Positions 15,645 to 19,410 of a stretch of 44,996 nucleotides of DNA are shown piece after piece. A model generated the notes under the pieces. It worked only from the letters and a program-made list of their open reading frames with translations, did no database searches and was not told the DNA's origin. The stretch is from a phage. The translations under genes were made by a program, and so were the position numbers. The DNA lies in the sequence record PZ789432.1; one strand, written 5' to 3'. Position 1 is the stretch's first letter. Each line of letters opens with the position of its first letter.

Positions 15645-15668
15645 TATTTACTGGACACTATAGAAGAG
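15645..15668 (+). promoter_or_regulatory. phage RNAP promoter (tatttactggacactatagaagag)
   Basis: Exact consensus; +1 G at 15663. Confidence 0.8.
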
Positions 15669-15718: not shown

Positions 15719-16099
15719 ATGTTCAAGATTGAAACTATCGTAAACCGTGTTGTTAAAGGTGCTGCTCTGGTATCCGTTGAGTCTTTCATTATCGTCGATG
15801 AAGCTGATCAACTGGTAGCTGGTACTAAGGCTTACGATACCCGTGAAGAAGCTCAGGCTAAGATTGACAGCATGGGTAACTTCGCTGCTGGTTTGGAGTT
15901 CGCTCGTGCTTGCTTCCCTGAGCAGGCTGACAAAGCTCAGATTGGTAAGGCTAATATCGTAGCTGAATATCTGGATTGGATTGCTGCTGGTAAGCCGGTG
16001 AAAGAAGTTAAGTCTGCTGAAGAAGCTGAATCTCAGGCAGTAGAAGAAGAAGTAGCTGCACCGGTAGATGCTCCGGTAAGCGAAGAGGAAGAGTTTTAA
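15719..16099 (+). CDS. hypothetical acidic protein (126 aa) ending SEEEEF; candidate SSB-like or polymerase-interacting protein
   Basis: ORF track; strong SD AAAGGAG; framed by a consensus promoter and a hairpin terminator. Confidence 0.75.
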   Translation: MFKIETIVNRVVKGAALVSVESFIIVDEADQLVAGTKAYDTREEAQAKIDSMGNFAAGLEFARACFPEQADKAQIGKANIVAEYLDWIAAGKPVKEVKSAEEAESQAVEEEVAAPVDAPVSEEEEF

Positions 16100-16105
16100 T
16101 TGATG

Positions 16106-16137
16106 CCCTGTCTGCCTTAGTGTAGGCAGGGTCTTTT
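16106..16137 (+). terminator. hairpin + U-run terminator
   Basis: ccctgtctgc-cttagt-gtaggcaggg followed by TCTTTT; similar in sequence to the terminator after the capsid gene. Confidence 0.6.
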
Positions 16138-16163: not shown

Positions 16164-16469
16164 ATGCCGACTATTAAATCTCGTTTAGTAGCAGACTATG
16201 TGTATGGTCGTGACTTAAAGTTAATGCAAGATTACTTTAAAGTAATCATCCTGCTGGATGGAGAAGTGTTTCACACTAAAACATTCACCCTTCCTGAATT
16301 GTTTGATTTAGGTTATTGGGGTTATACATATCAGGCCATAGCAGACAAGGTGCTACTCAGTGTATTAGAGGAGTGGCCTACATGCGACCAAACTTCGACT
16401 TCGGAGCTACAGTATCGGAAGACAATAACCTGTTGCTGTGGCCAACTGAAGGTAATAGAATCGCTTTAA
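16164..16469 (+). CDS. hypothetical protein (101 aa)
   Basis: ORF track; SD GGAG; 3' end overlaps the exonuclease start. Confidence 0.55.
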   Translation: MPTIKSRLVADYVYGRDLKLMQDYFKVIILLDGEVFHTKTFTLPELFDLGYWGYTYQAIADKVLLSVLEEWPTCDQTSTSELQYRKTITCCCGQLKVIESL

Positions 16470-17026
16470 TAGATGCTGACATGTTACCCTACATCGTAGG
16501 TTATACAATCAGTGACATGACTTATGTACGAGCCACAACTCGTGTTAAGTCAGGACAAGTCCCATCAATCAAAGATACACCTGAGTGTAAGCAAGCGTGT
16601 GACCGTGTGAACTCCTTGCTCAACTCTTGGGTGTATGCAGCAGAGTGTGATGCAGCTAAGTTATTCATGACGAAATCAGAAGCTAACTTCCGTGTTCGCC
16701 TAGCCTTCACCAAGCCTTACAAGGGTCAACGTAAGACCGAGAAGCCTCCGTTCTTCTATGAATTGCGAGAGCATCTCTTAGAGGTTCATGGTGCAATCTT
16801 GGCAGATGGAGAAGAGGCTGATGACCTCATGAGCATTGCACAATGGGACAGCCACCGCCGCTTCCAGCAAGCTACAGGTAACGAGTTCCCTATCGGTAGT
16901 CCAGAGCATAAAGCATTCTCTGATACTTGCATCGTTTCCTTAGATAAGGATTTGATGATTGTTCCCGGTTGGCATCTTCAGCCGGGTCAAGAGAAGAAAT
17001 GGGTTAGAGCCTATGGGTTGGCTTGA
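16382..17026 (+). CDS. 5'-3' exonuclease (T7 gp6-like), fragment 1 of 2; frame-disrupted
   Basis: ORF track 16316..17026 (non-ATG); ATG 16382 after GAGGAG; IALIDADMLPY, EEADDLMSIAQ and IVSLDKDLMIVPGW parallel T7 gp6. Confidence 0.85.
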   Translation: MRPNFDFGATVSEDNNLLLWPTEGNRIALIDADMLPYIVGYTISDMTYVRATTRVKSGQVPSIKDTPECKQACDRVNSLLNSWVYAAECDAAKLFMTKSEANFRVRLAFTKPYKGQRKTEKPPFFYELREHLLEVHGAILADGEEADDLMSIAQWDSHRRFQQATGNEFPIGSPEHKAFSDTCIVSLDKDLMIVPGWHLQPGQEKKWVRAYGLA

Positions 17027-17411
17027 GCTACGCCGTAAGGCTAATGGTCAGGTTAAAGACCTTAAAGGTGCTGGCCTCATGTTTCATTATGCACAGATGA
17101 TTATCGGTGATGATATTGATAACTATGCTGGCATACCTGGACGTGGTGCTAAATACGCCTATGATCTTCTCAAAGATTGTAAGACAGAGAAAGAGTTGTA
17201 CATGGCAGTGCTTGGTGCTTACAAGGCTAAGTTCGGACATGGACAAGTTAAGATTAAGAATTACCGAGGTGGTTATCGTATCGGCAAGGCTTTTGACCTG
17301 ATGCTCGAATGTGGTCGCCTAGCGCACATGGCAAGATTCAAAGGTGATATATGGCGAGCCGATAAGAACCCAATCTTGTGGGGAGATGATGCGGAATGGT
17401 TAGCAAATTAA
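16959..17411 (+). CDS. 5'-3' exonuclease, fragment 2 of 2; frame-disrupted
   Basis: MFHYAQMIIGDDIDNYAGIPGRG parallels T7 gp6 HLFQTIKGDITDGYSGIAGWG; the frame changes near 16990..17026. Confidence 0.8.
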   Translation: MFPVGIFSRVKRRNGLEPMGWLELRRKANGQVKDLKGAGLMFHYAQMIIGDDIDNYAGIPGRGAKYAYDLLKDCKTEKELYMAVLGAYKAKFGHGQVKIKNYRGGYRIGKAFDLMLECGRLAHMARFKGDIWRADKNPILWGDDAEWLAN

Positions 17412-17806
17412 AATCATCGGAGGTAGCAGCTTATAAGAGGGATTTGCTAGAGAAGCAAGGGTGGAAGTGCCCACTATGTGGCGGCAGTCTCAAGGCTGTT
17501 ACTCCTATAAACCGTGTACTTGACCATGACCATGAGACAGGATTCTGCCGTGCTGTTGTATGCCGAGGCTGCAATGGTGCAGAAGGAAAGATTAAGGGTG
17601 TTATCTCTGGTTACGGTAAGGCTGGTAACAACCGTTACTTCCAGCTTCAATGGTTAGAGCGACTATATGAATACTGGAAGTTACATAGTACGCCTCAGAC
17701 AGATAAGTTATATCACAAACATCAAACGGAGGCAGAGAAGCGCGAGGCTAAGAACCGTAAGGCACGCCTTGCTTATGCAAGAAAGAAGGAGGTTAAAGTT
17801 GGGTAA
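17396..17806 (+). CDS. endonuclease VII-like Holliday junction resolvase
   Basis: 136 aa; GWKCPLCGG...LDHDHETGFCRAVVCRGCNGAEGKIKG parallels T4 endo VII (KCLICQ...HLDHDHELNG...VRGLLCNLCNAAEGQ). Confidence 0.8.
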   Translation: MVSKLKSSEVAAYKRDLLEKQGWKCPLCGGSLKAVTPINRVLDHDHETGFCRAVVCRGCNGAEGKIKGVISGYGKAGNNRYFQLQWLERLYEYWKLHSTPQTDKLYHKHQTEAEKREAKNRKARLAYARKKEVKVG

Positions 17807-18806
17807 GCTTCGCAGCTTGTACAAAGACTCCGAGGTACTTGATGCAATCGAGCAAGCTACCGACGAGAAAGGTAATGTTAATTATAATGAGATGGCACGT
17901 GTATTATCGTGTCACCCTGTGGGTAAGAAGATTACCCGCCAGTTGGCTCGATACTGGCATGGTCAATTCAAGAAGACCAAGAAGAATGGTGATTATTACC
18001 AGACCCTTCTGCAAGAAGATAAGCGTATCAAAGAAGAGCGTAAGCTCAGGACTCCTGACCGCTACGAGGATTTGGCTATTGTACCATTGCCTGACTCGCC
18101 TCATCGAAGTGTACTGGTAATCCCTGATACTCATGCACCTTATGAGCATCCAGATACCTTAGAGTTCCTTGCAGCAGTCGCGGCACGTTACCGTCCAGAT
18201 ACAGTGGTTCACTTAGGAGATGAGGCAGATAAACACGCCCTCTCCTTCCATGACTCTGACCCTAATCTGGATAGTGCTGGCATGGAGCTAGAGAAGGCTC
18301 GTGTCTTCATGCACAAGTTGCACAAGATGTTCCCTGTGATGCGCCTGTGTCATTCTAATCACGGCTCTATGCACTTCCGTAAGGCAAGCGCCAAGGGTAT
18401 TCCAGTGCAATATCTTCGCACCTACCGTGAAGTCTTTTTCCCAAATGGAGGTGGCGACCAGTGGGATTGGCAGCATACACATGTTCTTGAGTTGCCGAAT
18501 GGTGAACAAGTGGCATTCAAGCATCAACCTGCTGGCTCTGTCCTAGCAGATGCAGCGCATGAGCGTATGAACCTTGTGTGTGGTCACTTGCACGGTAAGA
18601 TGTCTGTGGAGTACGCACGTAATACACATGAACAGTATTGGGCTGTGCAAGGTGGCTGCTTAATTGATGAGTCATCCCGTGCATTTGCCTATGGGCGTGA
18701 GTCTAAATACAAGCCAGCATTAGGTTGTGTGGTTATTCTGGAGGGTGTGCCTCATATTGTCCCGATGCAAACCAATAGCGACAACCGTTGGATTGGCAAG
18801 ATTTAG
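17799..18806 (+). CDS. calcineurin-like metallophosphoesterase
   Basis: ORF track 17667..18806 (frame open upstream); motifs VIPDTHAP, LGDEAD, HSNHG, GHLHG. Likely start TTG 17799 six nt after AAGGAGG; first ATG is at 17892. Confidence 0.75.
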   Translation: MGKLRSLYKDSEVLDAIEQATDEKGNVNYNEMARVLSCHPVGKKITRQLARYWHGQFKKTKKNGDYYQTLLQEDKRIKEERKLRTPDRYEDLAIVPLPDSPHRSVLVIPDTHAPYEHPDTLEFLAAVAARYRPDTVVHLGDEADKHALSFHDSDPNLDSAGMELEKARVFMHKLHKMFPVMRLCHSNHGSMHFRKASAKGIPVQYLRTYREVFFPNGGGDQWDWQHTHVLELPNGEQVAFKHQPAGSVLADAAHERMNLVCGHLHGKMSVEYARNTHEQYWAVQGGCLIDESSRAFAYGRESKYKPALGCVVILEGVPHIVPMQTNSDNRWIGKI

Positions 18807-18823
18807 TTGACACTATAGAACAA
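18801..18823 (+). promoter_or_regulatory. phage RNAP promoter (atttagttgacactatagaacaa)
   Basis: The copy closest to the classical SP6 promoter (ATTTAGGTGACACTATAG); +1 G at 18818. Confidence 0.7.
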
Positions 18824-18906
18824 AGGGCTAGGTAAGACTTTATCGGCTGGCGTATCCAAATGATATTGCACTAGCCCTTGATTGTATAGTGAATGGAGGA
18901 TTCAAT

Positions 18907-19410
18907 ATGTCACACTATGAATGTAAGAAGTGTCATAAGCGTTATGATTACTGTACTTGTGGTCAAGAGAAAACATCTTTTAAAGTTGGAGACAAGGTAT
19001 TTCGTAATGAAAAAGATTCGATCCCTTGGAATCAATACTGCAAAGAAGCTGGTATTGACCCTGATAGCCCTGTAACCATAGATGATATTGATGGCATTAA
19101 CTTGTGCTTTCGTGAGGTGAGGGGTACAGGTTGGGATTCCAAAAAATTCAAACTTGCATCTGATAAGTTAGACAACAATATGGTAACTCAGCCTAAGCAC
19201 TACGAGTTCTTTGATGGCGTAGAAGCAATTACTATCATCGCCCGTAGTATGACTGAGAAGCAATTCGCGGGGTATTGCATGGGTAATGCTTTGAAGTATC
19301 GTCTGCGTGCAGGTAAGAAGTTCAATACTGAAGAAGACCTGAAGAAAGCAGACTACTACAAAGAGTTATTCCAGAAGCATCGTCACGAATGTATTGATGA
19401 GGATATTTAA
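18907..19410 (+). CDS. hypothetical protein: N-terminal Cys4 zinc ribbon plus DUF3310-like C-terminal domain
   Basis: ORF track 18889..19410 (GTG); ATG 18907 after GGAGG; YECKKCHKRYDYCTCG; C-terminal HYEFFDGVEAI...GNALKYRLRAGKK...EDLKKADYY resembles DUF3310 as I remember it. Confidence 0.65.
   Translation: MSHYECKKCHKRYDYCTCGQEKTSFKVGDKVFRNEKDSIPWNQYCKEAGIDPDSPVTIDDIDGINLCFREVRGTGWDSKKFKLASDKLDNNMVTQPKHYEFFDGVEAITIIARSMTEKQFAGYCMGNALKYRLRAGKKFNTEEDLKKADYYKELFQKHRHECIDEDI

What the first reader, a model, noticed from the sequence alone, without database searches (positions are those of the whole stretch)
17799..18806. Metallophosphoesterase likely translated from a TTG start
All calcineurin-like motifs are present. 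The first in-frame ATG (17892) is ~90 nt downstream of a perfect AAGGAGG followed six nt later by TTG 17799, which overlaps the endonuclease VII stop, suggesting coupled translation from a non-ATG start. Such phosphoesterases are candidates for nucleotide-signal degradation or repair functions.
Basis: partly seen in the sequence, partly recalled or inferred. Interest (0 to 1): 0.4.

Follow-up and report, generated by a model that had tools for sequence, protein, structure and literature searches.

The report
Phage phosphoesterase gene with TTG start
This is the already-annotated gene 22 of a K1-5/SP6-like coliphage, a two-domain metallophosphoesterase that does start at the TTG codon, and its characterised relatives are mycobacteriophage DNA-replication nucleases, not enzymes that degrade signalling nucleotides.

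Summary
AAGGAGG (17786-17792) lies six nt before an in-frame TTG (17799) that overlaps the endonuclease VII stop (17804-17806). The ORF runs to TAG 18806 and carries the five metallophosphoesterase (MPE) motifs.

The window is a Vectrevirus (K1-5/SP6-like) genome. GenBank records, from K1-5 gene 22 onward, already annotate this exact start, so nothing here is new.

Comparative data pin the N-terminus:
- The homologous codon is TTG, GTG or ATG in 34 relatives.
- In some relatives a stop codon sits directly upstream.
- Codons 2-31 change mostly synonymously.
- The Met at 17892 is Thr in one close relative and has no Shine-Dalgarno (SD) sequence.

The protein has two parts: a basic ~98-aa helical N-domain with no detectable homolog, and a ~235-aa divergent MPE core. 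It belongs to PHROG 221, which also holds mycobacteriophage Bxb1 gp47. Papers read here report gp47 as required for phage DNA replication with weak exonuclease activity, and its cluster-A homolog A10ZJ24 gp48 as a DNase.

Context (exonuclease, endonuclease VII, MPE, nucleotide kinase, ligase) and inteins in relatives point to a DNA-metabolism nuclease. A role in degrading signalling nucleotides has no specific support. No ortholog from a T7-like phage has been tested.

The parts
17786..17792 (+). Shine-Dalgarno sequence AAGGAGG, six nt upstream of the TTG start, lying inside the 3' end of the endonuclease VII gene
   Evidence: sequence; duplex energy -12.9 kcal/mol against a background of -3.7 +/- 2.7; 15 copies against 5.25 expected, 14 on the + strand. 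A GGAGG-type core at the same place is seen in most of the close relatives.
17799..17801 (+). TTG initiation codon of the MPE gene (K1-5 gene 22 ortholog); the gene overlaps the endonuclease VII stop TAA at 17804-17806 by 8 nt
   Evidence: GenBank CDSs start at this codon; the homologous codon is TTG in 21, GTG in 7 and ATG in 6 of 34 close relatives. TAA lies immediately 5' of the GTG in L008, L035 and L036, and one codon upstream in L007 and L031.
17799..18092 (+). N-terminal domain (aa 1-98): basic (pI 9.35), five predicted helices, no detectable Pfam or PDB homolog; specific to this clade of Autographiviridae
   Evidence: conserved L36, L49, Y52, W53, R5, R81, R84; pLDDT about 87; no Pfam match at E <= 10; best PDB Foldseek hit E = 0.75, only weak winged-helix-like hits; among the 150 family representatives listed, most are about 235-aa proteins that align only to aa ~98-335; in codons 2-31, 14 synonymous against 3 non-synonymous codon differences versus PM116, and 8 against 0 versus L023.
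18093..18803 (+). MPE catalytic core (aa ~99-335) with motifs I-V (nt 18123-18140, 18213-18236, 18351-18368, 18516-18527, 18579-18596)
   Evidence: AlphaFold model pLDDT 87.4, pTM 0.82. Foldseek PDB hits to LpxH (E = 1e-6), Mre11, Vps29, YfcE and the small subunits of PolD and Pol delta/zeta. Same PHROG as Bxb1 gp47. hhalign to Bxb1 gp47: probability 87.5%, E = 3.5e-6.
18804..18806 (+). TAG stop codon, embedded in the next phage promoter
17396..17806 (+). Upstream gene: endonuclease VII (K1-5 gene 21 ortholog); no phage-promoter match lies between it and the MPE gene
   Evidence: PF02945, E = 2.8e-12; phrog_423.; in 26 diverse loci most immediate upstream ORFs carry the endoVII-type Cys/His motif by eye; this set was not scanned against a family library.
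18801..18820 (+). SP6/K1-5-type phage RNA polymerase promoter (ATTTAGTTGACACTATAGAA) that begins the next transcription unit (DUF3310 nucleotide kinase, ligase)
   Evidence: 10 matches on the + strand against 0.01 expected by chance. The nearest upstream promoter is at 15646-15665, so exonuclease, endoVII and MPE have no promoter match between them.

Best explanation
Nucleotides 17799-18806 encode the 335-aa ortholog of K1-5/SP6 gene 22.

Translation starts at TTG 17799. It is directed by the AAGGAGG SD that sits in the last codons of the endonuclease VII gene. No phage-promoter match lies between the exonuclease, endonuclease VII and MPE genes, so they are probably on one middle (DNA-metabolism) transcript. 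The 8-nt overlap may also allow coupled re-initiation.

The protein has two parts. The first is a basic helical N-terminal domain of about 98 aa with unknown fold relatives. It is inferred to be a nucleic-acid or partner-binding module. The second is a divergent binuclear-metal MPE core of about 235 aa.

The core belongs to PHROG 221, the family of mycobacteriophage Bxb1 gp47, L5 gp54 and A10ZJ24 gp48. By analogy with those proteins, it most likely acts as a Mn2+/Mg2+-dependent DNA phosphodiesterase (exo- and/or endonuclease). It would serve phage DNA replication or recombination, or the breakdown of host DNA into precursors, working alongside the neighbouring exonuclease, endonuclease VII, nucleotide kinase and ligase.

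Shown here: the start codon, the domain layout, the family membership and the conserved gene context. Inferred: the substrate and the biological role.
For: Start codon:
- GenBank CDSs begin here.
- The homologous codon is TTG, GTG or ATG in 34 relatives, and stop codons immediately upstream in L008, L035, L036, L007 and L031 pin the N-terminus.
- The peptide M-[GAS]-K-[LI]-R is conserved down to about 45% identity.
- Codons 2-31 change mostly synonymously, for example 14 against 3 and 8 against 0, including Ser AGC to TCN switches.
- This is the only strong SD among the eight in-frame candidates.

Fold and family:
- PHROG 221 matches at E = 3.4e-105.
- The AlphaFold model is confident and gives MPE-fold Foldseek hits.
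- Bxb1 gp47 hits the same PHROG at E = 4.5e-116.
- hhalign of the family profile to Bxb1 gp47 gives 87.5% probability and E = 3.5e-6 over 191 columns. The controls are lambda phosphatase at 8.5% and T5 A1 at 1%.

Function of relatives, from papers read here:
- The Bxb1 RDF is required for phage DNA replication, resembles PolD DP1 and Mre11, and shows weak 3' exonuclease activity (PMC11795197).
- gp47 homologs occur in phages with tyrosine integrases and lie between the polymerase and primase genes (PMC1470463).
- A10ZJ24 gp48 has phosphodiesterase and DNase activity that depends on the MPE motifs (PMC12287305).

Context:
- The order exonuclease, endoVII, MPE, nucleotide kinase, ligase holds in VEc3, K1E and this window.
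- Across 26 diverse loci the upstream gene is mostly endonuclease VII, judged by eye from the sequence motif.
- The downstream gene is often a dNMP kinase, a MazG-like pyrophosphohydrolase, a DUF3310 kinase or a nucleoside deoxyribosyltransferase.
- No integrase is annotated in the near-identical phage VEc3, so the recombination-directionality role of gp47 has no partner here.
- Inteins sit in motif II of relatives. The same was reported for the mycobacteriophage proteins (PMC5050341).
Against: - No experiment exists on any Autographiviridae ortholog; none turned up in the eight full-text searches run (for example).
- The relationship to Bxb1 gp47 is distant, at about 22% identity in the hhalign alignment.
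- The reported exonuclease activity of gp47 is weak, and those authors could not define it.
- Motif III lacks the acidic residue of GNH[D/E].
- The top structural neighbours include LpxH, a pyrophosphatase and not a nuclease, and all TM-scores are low (0.35-0.6).
- The nucleotide-metabolism genes downstream fit a small-molecule substrate equally well.
- The N-domain has no significant structural match, so its DNA-binding role is a guess.
- Use of the TTG start has not been shown at the protein level.
Confidence: 0.6

Rival explanations
1. The protein starts at ATG 17892 (Met32), giving a 304-aa product. The TTG and SD would be incidental features of the end of the endonuclease VII gene.
For: ATG is the commonest start codon. 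Met32 is present in at least 90% of the 41 aligned family members.
Against: - There is no SD before 17892; the duplex energy is +0.8 kcal/mol.
- Met32 is Thr in K1-ULIP33 (L005) and Ala or Leu in many distant relatives.
- Nucleotides 17802-17891 show coding-type substitution, mostly synonymous.
- The 31 residues are conserved in proteins of 45-55% identity that begin with ATG at the homologous position.
- The model places residues 4-37 in confident helices of the N-domain.
Confidence: 0.03
2. Translation starts further upstream in the open frame, at ATG 17775 or ATG 17667, overlapping the endonuclease VII gene by 32 or 140 nt.
For: The frame is open back to 17667 in this window. Both upstream candidates are ATG.
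Against: - Neither has an SD; energies are -3.7 and -2.7 kcal/mol.
- The open upstream stretch varies from 0 to 68 codons in close relatives.
- In-frame stops lie directly or one codon before the conserved start in L008, L035, L036, L007 and L031.
Confidence: 0.02
3. The enzyme is an anti-defence phosphodiesterase that destroys bacterial immune signalling nucleotides (cyclic mono-, di- or oligonucleotides).
For: From general knowledge, the MPE superfamily contains class III cyclic-nucleotide phosphodiesterases. Phages are known to carry signal-degrading enzymes, but of other folds. Nothing measured here excludes such a substrate.
Against: - No specific similarity to any cyclic-nucleotide phosphodiesterase was found. 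The PDB profile search found no MPE at all, and the top Foldseek hits are LpxH, Mre11 and Vps29.
- The gene holds a fixed, syntenic position in the DNA-metabolism module across several Autographiviridae subfamilies, not in the variable early region where the ocr-like anti-restriction gene sits.
- Characterised family members act on DNA (PMC11795197, PMC12287305).
- The two full-text searches that asked for phage MPEs in anti-defence or cyclic-nucleotide contexts found no report of one degrading signals.
Confidence: 0.08
4. The enzyme acts on small nucleotide products, as a nucleotidase, 2',3'-cyclic or 3'-phosphodiesterase, oligonucleotidase or dinucleoside polyphosphatase. It would feed host-DNA breakdown products to the neighbouring nucleotide kinase.
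For: - Downstream neighbours in 24 diverse loci are often nucleotide-metabolism enzymes: dNMP kinase 5, MazG-like pyrophosphohydrolase 5, DUF3310 nucleotide kinase at least 2, nucleoside 2-deoxyribosyltransferase 2.
- Structural neighbours include LpxH, YfcE, GpdQ and the Ap4A hydrolase SapH.
- A10ZJ24 gp48 showed generic phosphodiesterase activity (PMC12287305).
Against: - The same neighbourhood always includes DNA-acting enzymes upstream.
- The extra basic N-domain here, and a winged-helix domain in another family member (P0185, HTH_24, E = 2.4e-6), fit polymer binding better.
- Bxb1 gp47 is linked to DNA replication, not to salvage.
Confidence: 0.2
5. It is a protein Ser/Thr phosphatase of the PP2A or lambda-phosphatase type, as older records name it ('protein phosphatase 2a-like protein').
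For: The name is used in AAPEc6, K1-ULIP33 and Lolek. The general MPE motifs are shared.
Against: - hhalign of the family profile against lambda phosphatase gives only 8.5% probability, covering motifs I-III.
- Motif II is GDEADKH, not GDxVDRG, and motif III is SNHG, not GNHE.
- No PPP-family chain appears among the PDB hits.
Confidence: 0.03

Closest known systems
K1-5 gene 22, K1E gene 22 and SP6-group orthologs (Vectrevirus and other Molineuxvirinae 'metallo-phosphoesterase')
   Same: The same gene. It is 94-99.7% identical at the protein level, sits in the same position after endonuclease VII, has the same 1008-nt length and has the same annotated non-ATG start.
   Different: Nothing of substance. 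None of these orthologs has been studied experimentally, as far as the searches here show.
Mycobacteriophage Bxb1 gp47 / L5 gp54 / A10ZJ24 gp48 (cluster A metallophosphoesterase; Bxb1 recombination directionality factor)
   Same: - Same PHROG (phrog_221): E = 3.4e-105 for this protein and 4.5e-116 for gp47.
- hhalign gives 87.5% probability over the whole catalytic core.
- Both lie among replication and recombination genes, and endonuclease VII and an exonuclease are in the same Bxb1 gene block.
- Inteins sit in the conserved motif in both lineages (PMC5050341).
- Both have similar structural neighbours: Mre11, the PolD small subunit and LpxH (PMC11795197).
   Different: - gp47 is a 255-aa stand-alone core without the 98-aa N-domain.
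- Identity is only about 22%.
- gp47 also serves as a cofactor of a large serine integrase, which this lytic phage lacks.
- The hosts are actinobacteria and the phages are temperate siphoviruses.
Mre11/SbcD and the archaeal PolD DP1 proofreading exonuclease (MPE-fold nucleases)
   Same: Calcineurin-like fold with the same metal-ligand motifs. They are Foldseek hits: 4tug E = 9e-6, 3av0 E = 3e-5, 6hms E = 3e-3.
   Different: - TM-scores are low (about 0.35).
- There is no capping or OB domain, and no Rad50/SbcC or polymerase partner was identified.
- Sequence profiles do not connect them.
LpxH (UDP-2,3-diacylglucosamine pyrophosphatase)
   Same: It is the best PDB structural match: E = 1e-6, target-normalised TM 0.5.
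   Different: Identity is 13-15%. The Bxb1 gp47 relative was noted to lack the lipid-binding cap of LpxH (PMC11795197). A lipid A enzyme makes no sense in this gene context.
Lambda Ser/Thr protein phosphatase (NinI)
   Same: It is a phage-encoded MPE that shares motifs I-III.
   Different: hhalign probability is 8.5%, and the PPP-specific motif residues are absent.

Membership tests
Calcineurin-like metallophosphoesterase superfamily (Pfam PF00149) | Motif I D-x-H and motif II G-D-x-x-D (metal ligands) | tested here: met
   D110-T-H112 and G140-D141-E-A-D144 are invariant in 41 homologs.
Calcineurin-like metallophosphoesterase superfamily (Pfam PF00149) | Motif III G-N-H-[D/E] | tested here: inconclusive
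   The sequence is S186-N187-H188-G189, invariant in the family. The Asn ligand and catalytic His are present, but the leading Gly and trailing acidic residue are replaced.
Calcineurin-like metallophosphoesterase superfamily (Pfam PF00149) | Motif IV His and motif V G-H-x-H | tested here: met
   H242 is invariant, as are G262 and H265; H263 is present in at least 90% of sequences.
Calcineurin-like metallophosphoesterase superfamily (Pfam PF00149) | Score above the Pfam gathering threshold; alpha/beta sandwich fold | tested here: met
   21.6 bits against a 21.5 cutoff, a marginal pass covering only motifs I-III. The confident AlphaFold model gives 36 PDB matches at E <= 1e-3, essentially all MPE-fold proteins.
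PHROG 221 (phage metallo-phosphoesterase; includes Bxb1 gp47) | Full-length match to the family profile | tested here: met
   E = 3.4e-105, residues 1-334 on profile positions 16-358 of 367. Bxb1 gp47 gives E = 4.5e-116 on positions 110-363.
Bxb1 gp47-type recombination directionality factor | A cognate large serine integrase encoded by the same phage | tested here: not met
   No integrase is annotated in VEc3, which is 99% identical over the 1.7-kb segment compared. Autographiviridae are strictly lytic (general knowledge). The window's own ORFs were not scanned one by one.
Bxb1 gp47-type replication-associated nuclease | Metal-dependent nuclease activity and a requirement for phage DNA replication | not testable with these tools
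   This needs biochemistry and phage genetics. It is known only for the mycobacteriophage proteins (PMC11795197, PMC12287305).
PPP-family protein phosphatase (PP2A / lambda phosphatase) | GDxVDRG and GNHE motifs; profile similarity to lambda phosphatase | tested here: not met
   The motifs are GDEADKH and SNHG. hhalign probability is 8.5%.
Mre11/SbcD nuclease | Capping domain and a Rad50/SbcC ATPase partner gene | tested here: not met
   There is only a distant fold match. No SbcC/Rad50-like gene appears in the VEc3 annotation.
Ligase-associated endonuclease PdeM (TIGR04123) | Score above the curated cutoff of 150 bits | tested here: not met
   22 bits, covering only motif II.
Class III cyclic-nucleotide phosphodiesterase (CpdA/Rv0805 type) | Specific sequence or structure similarity to known members | tested here: not met
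   No such protein is among the top 50 PDB Foldseek hits or the profile hits. Activity itself was not testable.

The most novel reading that the evidence does not exclude
The conserved, basic 98-aa N-terminal domain has no detectable sequence or structure relatives. It could be a new DNA- or replisome-binding module that recruits a gp47-like MPE nuclease to the T7-type replication or recombination machinery. That would make gene 22 an unrecognised, near-universal accessory nuclease in several Autographiviridae subfamilies, for example one that processes ends or flaps during concatemer formation or host-DNA recycling.
Probability: 0.25. Interest if true: 0.5.

Novelty: already known. Interest (0 to 1): 0.15.

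Why it matters
It matters little as a discovery. The gene, its TTG start and its 'metallo-phosphoesterase' label have been in public annotation since K1-5 was sequenced.

The useful outcome is a better-founded functional lead. The protein shares a PHROG with Bxb1 gp47 and its mycobacteriophage homologs, the only studied members, which papers link to phage DNA replication and DNA cleavage. Hundreds of therapeutic-candidate Klebsiella, E. coli, Pseudomonas and Pectobacterium podophages carry this gene under 'hypothetical', 'PP2A-like' or 'phosphoesterase' labels. These could be re-annotated more precisely, and the gene is a reasonable target for a simple knockout and nuclease-assay study.

Tried and rejected
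- Sequence search of PDB with the single protein and with the family profile found no MPE hits. The family is too divergent, so fold search was needed.
- Foldseek of the isolated N-domain model against PDB gave nothing significant. The best hit was E = 0.75, with weak winged-helix-like hits. Pfam at E <= 10 also gave nothing for the N-domain. Its function stays unassigned.
- T5 A1, a possible phage MPE-type host-DNA degradation factor, shows no relationship: hhalign probability 1%.
- Lambda phosphatase was used as a control and rejected as a model.
- The NCBIfam hit to the ligase-associated endonuclease PdeM is far below threshold, 22 against 150 bits, and is not used as evidence.
- Literature searches for any experimental work on K1-5, SP6, KP34-type or Autographiviridae phosphoesterases found only genome-description papers. 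Savinov et al. 2012 (PMC3273658) is not held, so its conclusion is cited only through PMC11795197 and PMC5050341.
- BFVD lists gene 22 of 'K1E' as two proteins of 104 and 237 aa. The reference K1E record has an intact 1008-nt gene, so this is probably a variant or an error in another record.
- The sigma-70 promoter and terminator scan around the gene gave nothing above shuffle expectation for promoters.
Full report
**What the window is**

Megablast of 17300-19000 finds 101 phage records. The best is Escherichia phage vB-Eco-KMB14 at 99.8% identity, and K1-5 matches at 95.9%. All are Vectrevirus or related Molineuxvirinae (Autographiviridae), the SP6/K1-5 branch of the T7 supergroup.

The finding's ORF is the ortholog of K1-5 gene 22. 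The local gene order is exonuclease, endonuclease VII, this gene, DUF3310 'nucleotide kinase', a small ORF, then DNA ligase.

**Checking the observation**

The sequence shows the following.
- AAGGAGG is at 17786-17792, followed by TTAAAG and then TTG at 17799-17801.
- The endonuclease VII ORF (17396-17806) ends with TAA at 17804-17806, giving an 8-nt overlap.
- The reading frame runs to TAG at 18804-18806.
- The first in-frame ATG after the TTG is 17892.

Among the eight in-frame ATG/GTG/TTG codons between 17667 and 17960, only TTG 17799 has a real SD. Its predicted duplex energy with the 16S 3' end is -12.9 kcal/mol. The others range from -3.8 to +0.8, and ATG 17892 is at +0.8. The window-wide background is -3.7 +/- 2.7. 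AAGGAGG occurs 15 times in the window, 14 of them on the coding strand, against 5.25 expected.

**Is TTG 17799 the real start?**

Public annotation already says so. K1-5 AAR90064, VEc3 YP_009796091, KMB14 WPK27889, AAPEc6 ANT40827 and K1E YP_424999 all start at the codon equal to window 17799.

Annotation can simply be copied between records, so I tested the start comparatively using 12 annotated loci and 80 IMG/VR loci.
- In the 34 loci of the close clade, the homologous codon is TTG in 21, GTG in 7 and ATG in 6.
- In the Klebsiella phage S16a type (L008, L035) and in L036, a TAA stop lies immediately 5' of the GTG. In Proteus phage PM116 (L007, L031) a TAA lies one codon upstream. The ORF cannot start earlier in any of these.
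- The open stretch upstream varies from 0 to 68 codons, so ATG 17667 and ATG 17775 are accidents of this lineage.
- More distant proteins of 45-55% identity (Aeromonas Lolek, Pseudomonas Njord, Vibrio and metagenomic relatives) begin with ATG at or within two codons of the same position. They keep the peptide M-[GSA]-K-[LI]-R-x-[LR]-[FY].
- Codons 2-31 evolve like coding sequence. Against PM116 there are 14 synonymous and 3 non-synonymous codon differences. Against L023 there are 8 and 0. Several serine codons switch between AGC and TCN.
- Met32 (ATG 17892) is Thr in K1-ULIP33 and Ala or Leu in many distant relatives.

I rate TTG 17799 as the start at about 0.9. A minor internal start cannot be excluded without protein data.

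The close junction with the upstream gene is conserved: an 8-nt overlap, a stop abutting the start, or a 1-nt overlap with an inserted HNH gene. This fits translational coupling but does not prove it.

**What the protein is**

The family alignment of 41 sequences down to 47% identity shows two parts.

Residues ~99-335 carry the MPE motifs:
- D110-x-H112
- G140-D141-E-x-D144-x-H146
- S186-N187-H188-G189
- H242
- G262-H263-x-H265

All are invariant or nearly so. Motif III departs from the canonical GNH[D/E]. Pfam Metallophos passes only marginally, at 21.6 against 21.5 bits. PHROG 221 matches at E = 3.4e-105 over the whole length.

The AlphaFold2 model is confident, with pLDDT 87.4 and pTM 0.82. 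Foldseek against PDB returns only distant MPE-fold proteins:
- LpxH, E = 1e-6, target-normalised TM about 0.5
- Mre11 (4tug, 3av0)
- Vps29, YfcE, GpdQ and SapH
- The small subunits of PolD and of Pol delta/zeta

Sequence searches of PDB find no MPE at all. No close relative has a solved structure.

Residues 1-98 form a basic (pI 9.35), five-helix domain. Its invariant core is L36, L49, Y52 and W53, with conserved R5, R81 and R84. It has no Pfam match at E <= 10 and no significant PDB fold match (best E = 0.75, with weak winged-helix-like hits).

An exhaustive profile search finds 3176 cluster representatives at E <= 1e-3. Among the 150 listed, most are stand-alone cores of about 235 aa that align only to residues ~98-335. 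The N-domain is therefore a lineage-specific addition. Another family member (P0185) carries an unrelated N-terminal winged-helix domain, HTH_24 at E = 2.4e-6.

**Link to characterised proteins**

Mycobacteriophage Bxb1 gp47 matches the same PHROG 221 at E = 4.5e-116. hhalign of the family profile against gp47 gives 87.5% probability and E = 3.5e-6 over 191 columns that span all motifs. Two controls score far lower: lambda protein phosphatase at 8.5% and T5 A1 at 1%.

The papers read here report the following.
- gp47 is the recombination directionality factor of the Bxb1 serine integrase. Homologs such as L5 gp54 occur in phages with tyrosine integrases, and the gene lies between polymerase and primase, which suggested a replication role (PMC1470463).
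- gp47 is required for phage DNA replication, structurally resembles PolD DP1 and Mre11, and shows weak 3' exonuclease activity (PMC11795197).
- The cluster A homolog A10ZJ24 gp48 has motif-dependent phosphodiesterase and DNase activity, damages host DNA and is needed for growth in M. tuberculosis (PMC12287305).
- The mycobacteriophage proteins often carry inteins next to a conserved MPE motif (PMC5050341).

I see the same in this family. P0121 and P0155 have insertions of 299-300 aa directly after G-D-E of motif II. The insertions begin with Cys and end with Asn followed by Cys. P0159 contains a LAGLIDADG domain.

**Context**

No SP6-type promoter match lies between the nearest upstream one (15646-15665) and the one at 18801-18820, which overlaps the gene's stop codon. 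A terminator-like hairpin does lie at 16105-16132, between that upstream promoter and the exonuclease gene. Exonuclease, endonuclease VII and gene 22 therefore have no promoter match between them and are probably co-transcribed.

I examined 26 loci whose proteins are at most 80% identical to each other. By eye, most immediate upstream ORFs carry the endonuclease VII-type Cys/His motif; this set was not scanned against a family library. Of the 24 downstream ORFs scanned against PHROGs, many are nucleotide-metabolism enzymes:
- dNMP kinase, 5
- MazG-like dATP/dGTP pyrophosphohydrolase, 5
- DUF3310 nucleotide kinase, at least 2
- Nucleoside 2-deoxyribosyltransferase, 2

The near-identical phage VEc3 has no annotated integrase. 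The recombination-directionality role of gp47 therefore cannot apply here, and whatever the family's primary function is must be what this gene provides.

**Most likely mechanism**

Shown here:
- A 335-aa protein translated from TTG 17799.
- A binuclear-metal MPE core of the gp47 family, preceded by a basic helical domain.
- A fixed position in the DNA-metabolism module.

Inferred: it is a Mn2+/Mg2+-dependent DNA phosphodiesterase that helps phage DNA replication or recombination, or host-DNA recycling. The N-domain would bind nucleic acid or a replisome partner.

My confidences are:
- Start codon: about 0.9.
- MPE fold and family membership: at least 0.95.
- Some role in DNA or nucleotide metabolism: about 0.6.
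- DNA polymer rather than small nucleotides as the substrate: about 0.5.

**Rivals**

- A small-nucleotide salvage enzyme, about 0.2. The downstream neighbours and LpxH/YfcE/SapH-like structural hits support it.
- An anti-defence signal phosphodiesterase, about 0.08. Nothing specific supports it, and the gene's conserved core position argues against it.
- A PPP-type protein phosphatase, about 0.03. The motifs and the hhalign control argue against it.
- Alternative starts at 17892 or upstream, about 0.03 and 0.02.

**Novelty and verdict**

Its functional guess is weaker than the DNA-metabolism reading. The modest added value is the explicit connection to the Bxb1 gp47 family, plus the recognition of an unassigned N-terminal domain. 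Interest is low, at 0.15.

Noticed in passing
window 16382-17411 (indel at ~17004-17005): The exonuclease gene (K1-5 gene 20 ortholog) is frameshifted in this window. It has an extra T (GGGTTAG, against GGGTAG in 9 of 9 relatives checked). This splits the 343-aa CDS into ORFs ending at 17026 and starting at 16959. It is either a sequencing error or a real inactivating or slippage-prone mutation.
   Followed up: partly
window 18801-18820: An SP6/K1-5-type phage promoter (ATTTAGTTGACACTATAGAA) overlaps the MPE stop codon TAG at 18804-18806. Ten such promoters lie on the + strand of the window (2073, 9174, 10022, 13731, 14500, 15646, 18801, 24005, 38881, 40566).
   Followed up: partly
proteins P0121, P0155 (also P0159, P0267, P0266): Some family members carry inteins in the MPE core. 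P0121 and P0155 have insertions of 299-300 aa right after G-D-E of motif II. These start with Cys and end with Asn followed by Cys. P0159 has a LAGLIDADG_3 domain.
   Followed up: partly
L009 / L037 (Pectobacterium phage PP1, NC_019542 18665-19711): The 348-aa CDS annotated 'endonuclease VII' is a fusion. About 75 N-terminal residues of endonuclease VII are joined to residues 62-335 of the phosphoesterase. The end of endoVII and most of the N-domain are therefore missing. This is either a natural deletion or an assembly error.
   Followed up: no
L006 (vB_EcoP_D, KY295893) and L030, L032-L034: In this Vectrevirus sub-clade an HNH endonuclease gene is inserted between endonuclease VII and the phosphoesterase gene. 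The phosphoesterase then starts with ATG instead of TTG.
   Followed up: no
BFVD entries A0A2I4Q1Z7 (104 aa) and A0A2I4Q1Y4 (237 aa), 'Escherichia phage K1E': One K1E-labelled record has gene 22 split into an N-domain protein and a separate catalytic-core protein, at about the domain boundary. The reference K1E genome (NC_007637) has an intact 1008-nt gene.
   Followed up: partly
window 16105-16132: A strong terminator-like hairpin (11-bp stem, then a T-run) lies between the gene ending at 16099 and the ORF starting at 16164. It is downstream of the phage promoter at 15646 and upstream of the exonuclease gene.
   Followed up: no
window 17802-18803 (protein residues 113-145): There is a weak, sub-threshold NCBIfam hit to PdeM, the 'ligase-associated DNA damage response endonuclease' (22 bits against a 150 cutoff). 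A DNA ligase gene lies two genes downstream. On the present evidence this is probably only shared motif II.
   Followed up: no
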